Shown: positions 5,115 through 9,033 of the stretch, one piece after another
How the letters are laid out: every line of letters starts with the position of its first letter
How positions within the stretch are numbered: the first letter of the stretch is position 1
The notes under the pieces: model-generated
Seen by the model: the letters and a program-made list of their open reading frames with translations, nothing else
Told to the model about the DNA's origin: nothing
Databases searched by the model: none
Translations under genes and position numbers: made by a program
Assembly (NCBI RefSeq): GCF_009914755.1
Contig: NC_060937.1
Origin: the human T2T-CHM13v2.0 reference genome, Homo sapiens
Strand: one strand, 5' to 3'
Length of the DNA: 64,000 nt

Positions 5115-6128
5115 CTTTGTGGTTTTATCTACCTTTGGTCTTTGATGATGGTGACGTACAGATGGGGGTATGGTGTGGATGTCGTTTCTGTTTGTTAGTT
5201 TTCCTTCTAACAGGACCCTCAGCTGCAGGTCTGTTGGAGTTTGCTGGAGGTTGACTCCAGACCCTGTTTGCCTGGGTATCAGCAGTGGAGGCTGCAGAAC
5301 AGTGAATATTGCTGAACAGCAGATGTTGCTACCTGATCGTTCCTCTGGAAGCTTCGTCTCAGAGGGGTACTCAGCTGCGTGTGGTGTTAGTCTGCCCCTA
5401 GTGGGGTGTGCCTCCCAGTTAGGCTACTCAGGGGTCAGGGACCCACTTGAGGAGGCAGTCTGTCCATTCTCAGATCTCAAACTTCATGCTGGGAGAACCA
5501 CTACGCTCTTCAAAGCTGTCAGACAGGGACATTTAAGTCTGCAGAGGTTTCTGCTGCCTTTTGTTCGGCTATGCCCTGCCCCCAGAGGTGGAGTCTACAG
5601 AGGCAGGCAGGCCTCCTTGACCTGCGGTGGGCTCCACCCAGTTCAAGCTTCCTGGCCGCTTTGTTTACCTACTCAAGCTTCAGCAATGGCGGGCGCCCCT
5701 CTCCTAGCCTCGCTACTGCCTTGCAGTTTGATCTCAGACTGCTGTGCTAGCAATGAGCGAGGCTCCGTGGGTGTGGGACCCTCCGAGCCAGGCACAGGAT
5801 ATAATCTCCTGGTGTGCTGTTTGCTGAGACCATTGGAAAAGCGCAGTATTAGGGTGGGAGTGACCCGATTTTCCAGGTGCCATCTGTCACAGCTTCCCTT
5901 GGCTAGGAAAGGGAATTCCGTGACCCCCTGTGCTTCCCAGGTGAGGTGATGCCTCGCCCTGCTTTGGCTCACACTTGGTTGGCTGCACTCACTTTCCTGC
6001 ACCCACTGTCTGACAAGCCCCAGTGAGATGAACCTGGTACCTCAGTTGGAAATGCAAAAATCACCTGTCTTCTGCATCGCTCACACTGGGAGCTGTAGAC
6101 TGGAGCTTTTCCTATTCGGCCATCTTCT
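5115..6128. promoter_or_regulatory. L1 5'UTR bidirectional promoter region (sense promoter fires -, antisense promoter fires + toward RB1 exon 3)
   Basis: Complete 5'UTR; YY1 core ggccatctt at 6118-6126; many CpGs decayed, so activity uncertain. Confidence 0.6.
5686..5949 (+). CDS. L1 ORF0 homologue (87 aa), open, in the antisense 5'UTR
   Basis: gcaATGG Kozak; MAGAPLLASLLPCSLISDCCASNERGSVGVGPSEPG...IRVGVTRFSRC matches the primate L1 ORF0 peptide; it is the C-terminal part of ORF 5170..5949. Expression unknown. Confidence 0.75.
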   Translation: MAGAPLLASLLPCSLISDCCASNERGSVGVGPSEPGTGYNLLVCCLLRPLEKRSIRVGVTRFSRCHLSQLPLARKGNSVTPCASQVR

Positions 6129-6199
6129 AGTCTTTAATTTTTCATCTGTATGATGAGAAGTGAATCCAATGACTTTTTTAGATTGAAAAATTTTGAATC

Positions 6200-6680
6200 A
6201 AACTCAACTAAAATGAACAAAATATATGAAACTACAATAATGAAGACGTTATGATATTGGTGAAAAAAGACAAGTAAATCAATGGAACAGAACAGATAAT
6301 CCAGAAGTAGACCCACATATATATATTATTATAAGTTCATTTTCTACAGAGGTGCGAAGGTAATGGAGGAAGGATATTCTTCTCAACAAATAATGCTGGA
6401 GCAATTGGGTATCCAAATGCAGAAAATGAACTTCAATCCTTACCTCACACCATTTATAAAAACTAACCAGAAATGAAGCATAGACCTAAACTTCTAGAAG
6501 ATGACATAGGAGAAAGTCTTAATGAGCTTGGGTTAGGCAAAGATTTCATAAATACCTACCACTGAAAACATAACCCATAAAAGAAAAAAAATGAATAAAT
6601 TGAGCTTAATCAAAATTAAAAACTTCTATTCCTTGAAATATACTTCTTATGGAAGTCAAAACACAAGCTGCATCTGAAAT
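6200..6680 (+). mobile_element. Old L1M ORF2 3' fragment
   Basis: caatggaacagaacagataatccagaagtagacccaca and ttacctcacaccatttataaaaactaac are degraded L1 ORF2 motifs. Confidence 0.7.
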
Positions 6681-7234
6681 AAAGGTTACATTTTGCTCAT
6701 AGGAAAGTTCTTCAGGTCCTTAAAAATCAGAACCTACTTGTAGAACATTTCACTTATGCATTTTATCATATCAGATGATCCTGTGTTTCATTGTTTTGAC
6801 TACTAAATGTTCTAATAAAATTCGCTGTTTTAAAAAAATGAATAAACAACATACTAAATTTTAGCAACTTTCGCTTCATTTTTTAATCTTTAAAAGAGAG
6901 AGAGAGAAAAAAAAAAAGGCTGGAATTGATGAAAGGACATATATTGAGAGCAGTTATTGCCTGAGTGCAAAGAAGCAAACCAAAATGGTAAGAAATAAGC
7001 ATAAAAATTTAAAGACTATGGTAGTTGGGGTTATTTATTAAAGAGACAAACAACCTTTGACATCTTATTAGTTCCCAAGAAATTGACCATATTAACATAA
7101 ACACAAATACAGAAGTTGATTTTTGTTCATTTTATTAAAATATATATTTTTAATTAGTCTTGAAAACAGTGAAGCAGTGTATACTTTGTATCTTCAATTT
7201 CAGAAACAGTAAGTATGTAACATAGTTTCAAAAT

Positions 7235-7940
7235 CAGATTTATTGAGGTATAATTTACATACACAAAATATGCCAATTTTAAGTGCACAGTTCAATACGT
7301 TTTAACAGACATATTCACTCATATAATCACCACCATTAAGATATAGAACTTTTTGATCACTCCAGAAAGTTCTTTCATTCCCCTTTGCAGTCATTTCCCA
7401 ACACCTCCCCTCTGTTCCGCAGGCAACTACAGATCTACTTTTTGACTTTAAAGATTGGTTTTGCCTTTTCTAGAATTTCATATGAAAGGAATTATTCAAT
7501 GCATCCTTTTGAGTCTGGCTTTTTCTCAGTGTAATAATTTTGAGATTTATCTATATTGTTATATATATTAGGACATTTCCTTTTGATTTTCAAATAACAT
7601 TCCATTGTAGGGATATACCCCAATTTATTTTTCCATGCACTTCTTTTTTTTTTATATTTGGGTTGTTTGTAGTTTTTGGCCATTATGACTGAAGCTGCTA
7701 TGAACATTCACATATAATGTTTTCATTTCTCTTGGGTATGAATATCTGGGAGTAGAATTGCTATGTGTTATGAAAAGTGCATATTTAACTTTATAAGAAC
7801 TTCCAAACTTGTTTTCCAAAATGATTGTGCCATTTTACATTTTCACCAGTGATGTTTAAGTGTTCCATTGCACTACATCCTCACTGACCCTTGATATTGT
7901 CAGTCTTTTACATTTTAGCTATTCTAGTGGGTGTATAATT
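7235..7940 (-). mobile_element. L1MB/ME-type 3' end
   Basis: tttattgaggtataatttacatac...aagtgcacagttcaat; ORF 7492..7707 MFIAASVIMAKNYKQPK is L1 ORF2 C-terminus-like. Confidence 0.75.
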
Positions 7941-8309
7941 GTAATTTAAGTTGTAAAATATTTACATCCCAAGTAGCTAAAATTAAGAAAAAGTTTAGAG
8001 TTGGATGGTGGTAAACCTTTAATTACCTGTAAAATTTGGTAATCTGGAACAACTCACTTATCCTAAAGCTTTTATATAATTGATATTTCAAAATAATGTA
8101 AGATGGTATTACATGCTTTTTAGCTCTATTGTAATCTCCAGTTAAGAGTAAGTAAATAGTTCCAACTATTTAATGAACATTAATTTGACATTTCTTTTGT
8201 TTCCAACTTAATGTAATCCAAAATTACCCATAAAATGTAATATTTAGGGGTGGTATATATTGTGGGGAAAAATGTGTTCTAAAGATAATGAAAAAGTACT
8301 CTAGTGATA

Positions 8310-8465
8310 ATGATAGCCATCAATCATTAAGAACTGACTGTATACTATATACTATGCCAAAGGCTTTATAAATATAATTTCATTTAATTGTTACAAAATG
8401 GGGTACATATTCTTATTTTGATTTTACAAAGACAGTTAAGGAACTGAAACATGAAATACAAGGTT
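8310..8465 (-). mobile_element. MIR fragment
   Basis: tttcatttaat...ttttacaaa...aactgaaac...aggttaa resembles the MIR core. Confidence 0.45.
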
Positions 8466-8917
8466 AAAAATAATTGAATAAATAAATTGATAAAAGGAAT
8501 GAATGAATAGAGCAAGGAAAGAATAAGCGAATAAGAACGTGGGCTTGTTTTTTTCAAACAAATTATATGTTATGGACTCTAGATCTCTTAACTTAGCTTC
8601 AGTGACATTGGATTATTGAAAAATGAAACTATTTTGAGGAATTGACTGACCCCTAAAGTTTCCACAATAACTTATTTAATTTTTTATCTTTCTAATACTT
8701 TTTTGCCTTATAATATAAAATTTGAATGTTTGTTATTAGTGTGAAATGAAATCCTTTCAAATATATGCCATCAGAAGGATGTGTTACAAATATACAGTAT
8801 TACAAACATTTATTTTGTATGCTGAATAAGAAAAAATCAGTTATAATACAGTTTTAACATAGTATCCAGTGTGTGAATTATTTAATGAAATATTTGATCT
8901 TTATTTTTTGTTCCCAG

Positions 8918-9033
8918 GGAGGTTATATTCAAAAGAAAAAGGAACTGTGGGGAATCTGTATCTTTATTGCAGCAGTTGACCTAGATGAGATGTCGTTCAC
9001 TTTTACTGAGCTACAGAAAAACATAGAAATCAG
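8918..9033 (+). CDS. RB1: RB1 exon 3 (116 nt, starts phase 0)
   Basis: ttcccag|GGA...ATCAG|gtaaag; [38 protein letters not shown]. Confidence 0.98.

What the first reader, a model, noticed from the sequence alone, without database searches (positions are those of the whole stretch)
5686..9033. Predicted in-frame L1 ORF0-RB1 fusion (925 aa) from an intronic antisense promoter
Seen: ORF0 ATG at 5686 (gcaATGG) is open to a strong donor CAG|GTGAGG at 5940/5941. 5686-5940 is 255 nt, exactly 85 codons, and RB1 exon 3 (8918) starts in phase 0 only 3 kb downstream on the same strand. Established: primate L1 5'UTRs have an antisense promoter, and ORF0 splices into neighbouring exons to make fusion proteins. 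Inference: a transcript independent of the RB1 promoter could encode 85 aa of ORF0 plus pRB 89-928 (925 aa versus 928 native), which would co-migrate with pRB and keep the pocket. It could bypass promoter or exon 1-2 lesions when L1 is demethylated. I do not know of a description of this product.
Basis: partly seen in the sequence, partly recalled or inferred. Interest (0 to 1): 0.88.

Follow-up and report, generated by a model that had tools for sequence, protein, structure and literature searches.

The report
Unproven L1 ORF0–RB1 fusion frame
An old LINE-1 fragment in RB1 intron 2 carries an antisense reading frame and splice donor that would join in frame to RB1 exon 3, but this is a trait of its whole L1 family and no catalogue I could check shows the transcript being made.

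Summary
The sequence observation is correct. ATG 5686 opens 85 codons that end at a near-consensus donor (CAG|GTGAGG, 5940/5941). RB1 exon 3 (8918) starts in phase 0, and the joined frame stays open through all 15 RB1 exons in the window.

The layout is not special to this copy. 17 of the 30 closest copies in the same genome have the same ATG, open frame and phase-0 GT donor. Only the phase match with exon 3 is local, with a prior of about 1 in 3.

The element is a 3.7 kb, 3'-truncated "L1P1" fragment, 7.1% diverged and CpG-depleted.

I found no evidence of the spliced transcript. RB1 is absent from the supplementary tables of:
- an EST catalogue of 988 L1-antisense transcripts;
- a RAMPAGE atlas of 26,056 TE start sites;
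- a long-read lung set, an epigenetic-drug set and a DNMT1-knockout set.

The only trace is unspliced + strand RNA across the L1 edge in 7 of 8 gliomas. It cannot be told apart from RB1 pre-mRNA.

Older L1s stayed silent after demethylation. The reading is a plausible but unsupported prediction of a known kind, of low interest.

The parts
2423..6128 (-). 3'-truncated primate L1 fragment ('L1P1', consensus positions 13-3732, 7.1% divergence): 5'UTR, a decayed ORF1 and the first part of ORF2
   Evidence: RepeatMasker row hg19 chr13:48910240-48913945(-) in Pinson 2022 Table S1. The hg19 minus 48,907,817 offset puts its 5' end at window 6128, which agrees with the sequence read. Unique sequence lies to the left of about 2423.
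5115..6128 (-). L1 5'UTR (about 1014 nt). The reverse complement of the ORF1 ATG lies at 5112-5114. The region is CpG-depleted.
   Evidence: Sequence. 21 CpG, observed/expected 0.29.
5541..5741 (+). Equivalent of the L1 antisense-promoter core (+400 to +600), with a RUNX-like TGCGGT core at 5623-5628
   Evidence: Positions computed from the RepeatMasker register. The ASP at +400..+600 and the RUNX3 site at 526-508 are stated in Kaer 2011. The motif was found; the TGYGGT consensus is recalled. 21 of 30 paralogues keep TGYGGT there.
5571..5750 (+). Upstream out-of-frame ATG with a 59-codon ORF that overlaps the ORF0 start. It would intercept ribosomes on transcripts that start upstream of 5571.
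   Evidence: The ATG is kept in 26 of 30 paralogues, or 27 counting one copy with an insertion in that column.
5686..5940 (+). ORF0-type antisense ORF: 85 codons from the ATG (GCAATGG) to the last exon base before the donor
   Evidence: 27 of 30 paralogues keep the ATG and 18 of 30 are open to the donor.
5938..5946 (+). 5' splice-site motif CAG|GTGAGG, in phase 0 relative to ATG 5686
   Evidence: It matches 8 of 9 consensus positions. GGTGAGG is kept in 29 of 30 paralogues and CAGGTGAGG in 15 of 30.
5876..5882 (+). Second, weaker CAG|GTGCCA donor inside the ORF. It is in phase 2, so it is not in frame with exon 3.
   Evidence: 6 of 9 consensus positions.
8898..8917 (+). Polypyrimidine tract and acceptor of RB1 exon 3
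   Evidence: pyrimidine fraction 0.88, among the best of the 15 RB1 acceptors in the window.
8918..9033 (+). RB1 exon 3 (codons 89-127, phase 0). The Met113 codon lies at 8990-8992.
   Evidence: Hub RefSeq table and the translation. The residues match PDB 2qdj_A positions 38-75. Met113 as an internal start site: passage in PMC8534066.

Best explanation
This is a latent, family-inherited coding and splicing layout, not a demonstrated gene product. An old L1 fragment of roughly L1PA5/6 age, truncated at its 3' end, sits antisense in RB1 intron 2. It keeps what most of its close relatives keep: the ORF0 ATG, an open frame and a strong GTGAGG donor 255 nt downstream. Because exon 3 starts in phase 0, the two frames happen to match. 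Plus-strand RNA over the element is most simply RB1 pre-mRNA, or at most unspliced read-through. The L1-to-exon 3 splice and an ORF0-pRB protein are either not made or are made at levels below every catalogue I could consult. Shown here: the sequence layout, its spread in the family, and the absence of RB1 from the catalogues. Inferred: that the antisense promoter of this copy is inactive or very weak.
For: Layout. Family trait: 17 of 30 closest genomic copies have ATG, open frame and phase-0 GT donor. Age and decay: 7.1% divergence, similar to rows labelled L1PA5-L1PA7 in the same table; 21 CpG in 1014 nt, observed/expected 0.29; the 3' 2.4 kb is missing. No transcript evidence: 'RB1' occurs 0 times in the 10 supplementary files of the EST catalogue of 988 L1-ASP transcripts. 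There is no chr13 start site at 48339xxx (hg38) or 48913xxx and no 'RB1' in the 3 supplementary files of a RAMPAGE atlas (115 biosamples, 26,056 TE start sites, each linked to exons by read pairs). There are 0 hits in a long-read lung adenocarcinoma set, an epigenetic-drug set, and the 5 supplementary files of the DNMT1-knockout study, which lists 131 GENCODE v25 start sites inside primate L1s. RefSeq has no exon here (hub table). Main texts do not mention RB1. Older L1s stayed silent without DNA methylation. L1 chimeric transcript levels follow host-gene transcription, and 2.9% were spliced at the 5' end.
Against: Pinson 2022 Table S2 lists chimera Id_2259 from exactly this L1. It spans window 5734-6295 on the + strand, with reads 3,0,6,5,2,3,2,3 in 8 gliomas and 0,0,0 in 3 control brains. 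In that study 31 of 32 tested chimeras from L1PA1-7 did start in the antisense promoter. This one was not tested, and it lies on the RB1 pre-mRNA strand in total-RNA libraries. The donor is stronger than most RB1 donors, exon 3 is the next strong acceptor, and it already accepts another intron-2 first exon, 2B. A RUNX-like core is present in the promoter region. The catalogues have limited depth and tissue range. I could not see the Denli 2015 list of 57 ORF0 fusions and had no junction database.
Confidence: 0.65

Rival explanations
1. The L1 antisense promoter fires upstream of 5686, the RNA is spliced 5940->8918, and a 925-residue ORF0-pRB(89-928) protein is translated. That would give RB1-promoter-independent pocket protein in some cell states.
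For: The frame and splice signals are compatible. ORF0-exon fusions exist elsewhere: 57 of about 3200 loci according to Criscione's account of Denli 2015, and fusion reads after DNMT1 knockout. Exon 2B-to-exon 3 is a precedent for the acceptor. Glioma-only + strand reads cross the L1 edge.
Against: No catalogue lists it. For ATG 5686 to be the first AUG, transcription must start between 5572 and 5685, because 5571 carries a conserved out-of-frame ATG. Reported start sites lie near +400, +450 and +200. The four L1-MET EST 5' ends shown map to element positions 345-453, so three lie downstream of the ORF0 ATG and one lies at it. Older L1s were not activated by demethylation. The fusion point replaces about 37 residues at the start of the crystallised pRB N-terminal construct, since exon 3 starts at position 38 of 2qdj_A. 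The replacement is a basic segment with 7 Cys and a hydrophobic first 20 residues, so folding and targeting are uncertain.
Confidence: 0.08
2. The antisense promoter of this copy is weakly active when RB1 is transcribed, but the product is not an ORF0 fusion. Either it is an unspliced, largely non-coding L1 chimeric transcript that runs into intron 2, or it is a spliced RNA that starts downstream of 5686. The first usable in-frame AUG of such an RNA would be Met113 in exon 3 (8990), giving pRB94.
For: Id_2259 is unspliced and was seen in 7 of 8 gliomas. 97% of such transcripts were unspliced at the 5' end, their levels follow the host gene, and 12 of 36 walked chimeras started in the +200 region and 19 in the +450 region. 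The primary start is near +400. After 5686 the only other ATG before the donor is 5753, a 24-codon dead-end ORF. Met113 initiation giving pRB94 is documented.
Against: The same reads are expected from RB1 pre-mRNA in ribo-depleted total RNA. This chimera was not validated. No capped start site was seen in the RAMPAGE atlas.
Confidence: 0.25
3. If a 5940->8918 junction is ever seen, it could come from exonisation of the antisense L1 inside ordinary RB1 pre-mRNA (a cryptic acceptor paired with the strong donor) and not from an L1-initiated RNA.
For: Crude scan: YAG acceptors with a pyrimidine fraction of about 0.71 lie at 5198, 5213, 5585 and 5726, comparable to several real RB1 acceptors. Criscione 2016 removed candidates with EST evidence of L1 exonisation because antisense L1s carry cryptic splice sites.
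Against: All four candidate pseudo-exons have lengths of 1 modulo 3, so they would shift the frame and the RNA would probably be degraded. None is annotated (hub table). The scan is a rough rule of thumb, not a trained splice model.
Confidence: 0.05

Closest known systems
L1 ORF0 and ORF0-host exon fusion proteins (Denli et al. 2015, Cell 163:583; seen only through other papers' accounts)
   Same: An ATG at about L1 position 452 on the antisense strand of a primate L1 5'UTR, followed by an ORF that contains or abuts a splice donor able to join downstream host exons.
   Different: ORF0 of L1HS is given as 71 residues. In this copy the frame runs 85 codons to the donor and 87 if unspliced, and in 10 of 30 paralogues it runs 133. 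No transcription, splicing or translation evidence exists for this locus. I could not check whether it is among Denli's 57 fusions.
L1 antisense-promoter chimeric transcripts such as L1-MET (Speek 2001, recalled; Criscione 2016; Pinson 2022)
   Same: An intronic L1 5'UTR antisense to its host gene, so the antisense promoter points along the gene towards the next exon. This very element is in Pinson's list of promoter-bearing L1s and has a CLIFinder chimera, Id_2259.
   Different: L1-MET is backed by several spliced ESTs. Here there are no ESTs, no capped start site and no spliced read, only unspliced reads on the pre-mRNA strand.
RB1 transcript 2B from CpG85 in the PPP1R26P1 retrocopy (Kanber et al. 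2009, PMC2791201)
   Same: An alternative first exon supplied by a retrotransposed sequence in RB1 intron 2 and spliced onto exon 3, skipping exons 1-2.
   Different: 2B was shown by exon-connection RT-PCR and 5'RACE. It is imprinted, comes from a CpG island and is present at very low level. The L1 exon proposed here is hypothetical, CpG-poor, and would add an in-frame ORF.
pRB94, internal initiation at Met113 (Sanchez-Sanchez et al. 2007, as described in PMC8534066)
   Same: An N-terminally altered pRB that keeps the pocket and can soften exon 1 lesions.
   Different: It is made from ordinary RB1 mRNA by alternative translation initiation, and no L1 is involved.

Membership tests
L1 antisense-promoter (ASP) chimeric transcript | A primate L1 (L1PA1-8) 5'UTR that includes the +400..+600 region | tested here: met
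   The RepeatMasker row covers consensus positions 13-3732. The element is in Pinson's list of promoter-bearing L1s, which was filtered on start <400 and end >600. The sequence was read.
L1 antisense-promoter (ASP) chimeric transcript | [quoted passage not shown] | tested here: inconclusive
   No start site at this place in the RAMPAGE atlas of 115 biosamples and no EST. Unspliced + strand reads in 7 of 8 gliomas cannot be separated from RB1 pre-mRNA. I had no CAGE or long-read data to query directly.
L1 antisense-promoter (ASP) chimeric transcript | RNA continuity from the L1 5'UTR into flanking unique sequence or host exons | tested here: inconclusive
   Id_2259 joins window 5734-6125 to 6071-6295 without splicing and was not validated. 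No spliced join to exon 3 appears in any table searched.
ORF0 / ORF0-host fusion | An ATG at about +452 antisense in a good initiation context | tested here: met
   ATG 5686 corresponds to about position 455 in the RepeatMasker register. Context GCAATGG.
ORF0 / ORF0-host fusion | ORF open to a splice donor and in phase with the downstream host exon | tested here: met
   85 codons to CAG|GTGAGG, with exon 3 in phase 0. 562 residues are open through exon 17.
ORF0 / ORF0-host fusion | Evidence of the spliced mRNA and of translation (ribosome footprints or peptides) | not testable with these tools
   No junction, ribosome-profiling or proteomics resource was available. Denli 2015 and its tables are not held.
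RB1 alternative first-exon transcripts from intron 2 | A first exon in intron 2 experimentally joined to exon 3 | not tested
   Shown for exon 2B only. Nothing equivalent was found for the L1.

The most novel reading that the evidence does not exclude
In cells that transcribe RB1 strongly (the glioma-only reads of Id_2259 hint at this), the old L1 in intron 2 starts RNAs between 5572 and 5685 that splice 5940->8918. These RNAs would yield a 925-residue ORF0-pRB protein that runs with pRB on gels, lacks epitopes 1-88 and supplies pocket function independently of the RB1 promoter and exons 1-2. Such a protein could modify the penetrance of 5' RB1 lesions.
Probability: 0.04. Interest if true: 0.7.

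Novelty: new member of a known kind. Interest (0 to 1): 0.22.

Why it matters
If it were real, a retrotransposon-driven, promoter-independent RB1 isoform would bear on three things: low-penetrance retinoblastoma alleles in the promoter and exons 1-2, the reading of pRB western blots, and tumour-specific junction peptides. As it stands, the locus is one of many L1 copies whose inherited ORF0 and donor happen to be in phase with the next host exon. More than half of its closest relatives carry the same module. The practical value of this check is to stop an attractive in-silico fusion from being read as a finding, and to name the exact junction and start-site window that would settle it.

Tried and rejected
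1. 'Gene-breaking' idea: that the RefSeq alternative RB1 exon ending at 1225 is a polyadenylation event inside the antisense L1, which would pair with an L1-promoter-driven downstream transcript. Rejected. The L1 fragment starts only at about 2423, and 1-1500 is unique sequence with ATTAAA at 1207-1212.
2. An in-frame pseudo-exon from the acceptor-like CAG at 5583-5585 to the donor at 5940. Rejected. Its length is 355 nt, which is 1 modulo 3, as for the other three candidates.
3. The second donor, CAG|GTGCCA at 5876/5877, as an alternative in-frame fusion point. It is in phase 2, so not in frame.
4. Using Pinson's L1-MET row to learn which donor is used. That chimera is also listed as unspliced, so it gave no information.
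5. Papers not held: Denli 2015, Speek 2001 and Matlik 2006. The published coordinates of donors SD1 and SD2 and the list of 57 fusions could therefore not be checked, and I cannot say whether the 5940 donor is Denli's SD2.
7. Literature searches for a described product: RB1 + LINE-1 + chimeric transcript + intron 2 gave 2 papers, neither about RB1 transcripts judging by title and abstract. RB1 + 'L1 antisense promoter' gave 4 reviews; I read passages of one, where RB1 appears as an L1 repressor. ORF0 + RB1 gave 11 papers, none on a fusion judging by title and abstract. Six hyphenated names such as L1-RB1 gave 0 papers.
8. I made no structure prediction of the fusion, because a spliced join is not a contiguous window sequence.
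Full report
**The observation**

The minus strand of window 2423-6128 is a primate L1 fragment. Its 5' end lies at 6128 and the reverse complement of its ORF1 start lies at 5112-5114.

On the plus strand, which is the RB1 sense strand, an ATG at 5686 (GCAATGG) opens a frame of exactly 85 codons. The frame ends at CAG|GTGAGG, with the donor boundary at 5940/5941. 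Unspliced, the frame stops at 5947.

RB1 exon 3 begins at 8918 behind a pyrimidine-rich acceptor. Joining 5940 to 8918 gives ...[10 protein letters not shown].... The frame then stays open for 562 residues through all fifteen RB1 exons in the window. Exons 18-27 lie outside the window and were not checked.

The donor matches 8 of 9 consensus positions. Only 2 of the 15 RB1 donors in the window reach 8 or more. The other CAG|GT in the ORF, at 5876/5877, is in phase 2.

**What the element is**

Pinson et al. 2022 (PMC9396940; I read passages, section 16 and parts of Tables S1 and S2) reproduce the RepeatMasker row for this element. It reads hg19 chr13:48910240-48913945, minus strand, 'L1P1', consensus positions 13-3732, 7.1% substitutions, with 2414 consensus positions missing at the 3' end.

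Subtracting 48,907,817 places its 5' end at window 6128, as read from the sequence. To the left of about 2423 the sequence is unique.

In the same table, rows labelled L1PA2, L1PA3 and L1PA4 show 2-2.5%, 3% and 4.6% divergence. Rows labelled L1PA5-L1PA7 show about 6.6-8.7%. This copy is therefore of roughly L1PA5/6 age.

Its 5'UTR is about 1014 nt long and holds only 21 CpG, an observed/expected ratio of 0.29.

**Is the layout more than chance?**

I searched the window's own genome with 5686-5948. The search found 4350 first-look candidates, scored 40 and returned 30 loci of 91.6-100% identity, this copy included. Tallied copy by copy:

| Feature | Copies out of 30 |
|---|---|
| ATG kept | 27 |
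| Frame open from that position to the donor | 18 |
| ATG, open frame, phase 0 and GT donor together | 17 |
| GGTGAGG donor core kept | 29 |
| Out-of-frame upstream ATG at 5571 kept | 26 |
| TGYGGT core at 5623 kept | 21 |

The module is a family trait. Any such copy lying upstream of a phase-0 exon gives the same in-frame prediction. Only the phase match to exon 3 is specific to this locus, and its prior is about one in three.

The L1PA7 5'UTR at 60274-61612 in this window keeps the ATG and the GGTGAGG core. It carries about 190 extra bases inside the ORF0 region.

**Evidence on expression: negative results**

- **EST catalogue.** Criscione et al. 2016 (PMC4908685; abstract, passages, section 7 and a search of all 10 supplementary files) list 988 L1-antisense chimeric transcripts from 2015 ESTs. 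'RB1' occurs 0 times, while L1-MET is listed with several ESTs.
- **RAMPAGE atlas.** This atlas (PMC12963367; passages and a search of 3 supplementary files) covers 26,056 TE-derived start sites from 115 biosamples in hg38. Each site is linked to exons by read pairs spanning more than 1 kb. It has no 'RB1'. Its only 48339xxx and 48913xxx entries are on chr10 and chr4. The hg38 position rests on a recalled offset.
- **Three further supplementary sets.** No RB1 or coordinate hit in a long-read lung adenocarcinoma set, an epigenetic-drug set, or the five supplementary files of Jonsson et al. 2019. Jonsson's text says they listed 131 GENCODE v25 protein-coding start sites that lie inside primate L1s.
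- **RefSeq.** It has no exon between 1225 and 8918 (hub table).
- **Main texts.** Those of Honda 2020, Garza 2023, Sun 2022 and PMC10506190 do not mention RB1.
- **Searches for a described product.** Four full-text searches found none.

**Evidence on expression: the one positive trace**

Pinson's Table S2 lists chimera Id_2259 from this very L1. It spans hg19 48913551-48914112 on the + strand, which is window 5734-6295. Read counts are 3,0,6,5,2,3,2,3 in eight IDH-wild-type gliomas and 0,0,0 in three control brains. It is flagged as not RT-PCR-validated and not EST-supported.

It is an unspliced join across the L1 5' edge, found in ribo-depleted total RNA on the strand of RB1 pre-mRNA. For this locus it therefore cannot be told apart from intron reads.

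The authors did find that 31 of 32 walked chimeras from L1PA1-7 start in the antisense promoter. They also report that only 44 of 1509 (2.9%) are spliced at the 5' end, and that levels follow host-gene transcription and not L1 methylation.

**Would such an RNA encode ORF0-pRB?**

- ATG 5686 is the first AUG only for start sites between 5572 and 5685. Upstream of that lies the conserved out-of-frame ATG at 5571, which opens 59 codons and overlaps the ORF0 start.
- Reported start sites lie near +400 (Criscione), or in a '+450' region (19 of 36 walked chimeras) and a '+200' region (12 of 36).
- The four L1-MET EST 5' ends shown map to element positions 382, 345, 453 and 391. Three lie downstream of the ORF0 ATG and one lies at it. 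ESTs can be 5'-truncated, so this is weak evidence.
- An RNA that starts downstream of 5686 meets only a 24-codon dead-end ORF at 5753 before the donor. Its first in-frame RB1 AUG is then Met113, at 8990.
- Initiation at Met113 giving pRB94 is already the published explanation for low-penetrance exon 1 frameshifts (Sanchez-Sanchez 2007, as described in PMC8534066).

**The proposed trigger**

In DNMT1-knockout neural progenitors only L1HS, L1PA2 and L1PA3 were activated. Older L1s were not expressed even without DNA methylation. Pinson et al. argue that the antisense-promoter core is CpG-poor and is not governed by methylation. This copy is old and CpG-depleted, so 'when L1 is demethylated' is not a well-founded trigger for it.

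**The protein, if it were made**

- It would keep the pocket, which exons 12-22 encode (recalled).
- Exon 3 residue 89 aligns to position 38 of the crystallised N-terminal construct 2qdj_A. About 37 residues at the start of that construct would therefore be swapped.
- The replacement is an 85-residue basic segment (pI 9.05) with 7 Cys and a hydrophobic first 20 residues (GRAVY 1.44).
- Whether the fusion folds, or reaches the nucleus, is open.

**Comparison with what is known**

The mechanism is the established one of L1 antisense-promoter chimeric transcripts and ORF0 fusions. At this gene the closest case is exon 2B from the PPP1R26P1 retrocopy in the same intron. RT-PCR and 5'RACE showed that it splices onto exon 3 at very low level (Kanber 2009).

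For membership, the DNA-level features are met: an L1PA-type 5'UTR containing the promoter region, the ATG at about +452, and an ORF open to a donor and in phase. The RNA-level features, a capped start and a spliced join, are inconclusive or could not be tested. Translation could not be tested.

**Verdict**

| Reading | Probability |
|---|---|
| Latent module; + strand RNA is pre-mRNA or read-through | 0.65 |
| Weak antisense-promoter activity without an ORF0 fusion | 0.25 |
| Real ORF0-pRB fusion mRNA and protein | 0.08 |

A single junction and start-site look-up, specified under decisive next steps, would settle the question.

Noticed in passing
window 5170-5946 (+): The ORF0 frame is open far upstream of the ORF0 ATG. 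It runs 259 codons from ATG 5170, with further in-frame ATGs at 5179 and 5323, across almost the whole antisense L1 5'UTR.
   Followed up: partly
window 1207-1225 (+): The RefSeq alternative RB1 exon that ends at 1225 lies in unique sequence and has an ATTAAA signal at 1207-1212, 13 nt before its end. It looks like an intron-2 polyadenylation isoform unrelated to the L1.
   Followed up: partly
window 60274-61612: A plus-strand L1PA7 5'UTR lies here. Its antisense strand keeps the ORF0 ATG and the GGTGAGG donor core but has about 190 extra bases inside the ORF0 region. Pinson Table S2 lists chimera Id_2260 here, antisense to RB1, with 3 reads in all.
   Followed up: partly
window 7371-7422 (+): Two strong-looking cryptic acceptors (TTTGCAG|TCA at 7390 and TTCCGCAG|GCA at 7422) lie between the L1 donor and exon 3. 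They are the only two that passed a crude pyrimidine filter in 5960-8916.
   Followed up: no
window 2423 (left edge of the L1): The L1 is truncated at its 3' end and not, as is usual, at its 5' end. About 2.4 kb of the consensus is missing, which implies a later deletion or rearrangement in intron 2.
   Followed up: no
loci L005, L010, L015, L017, L018, L024, L025, L027, L029, L030: In 10 of the 30 closest genomic copies the unspliced antisense ORF runs 133 codons, and in 3 more it runs 108. This copy has 87, and the literature gives 71 for L1HS ORF0. ORF0 length therefore varies widely among older copies.
   Followed up: partly
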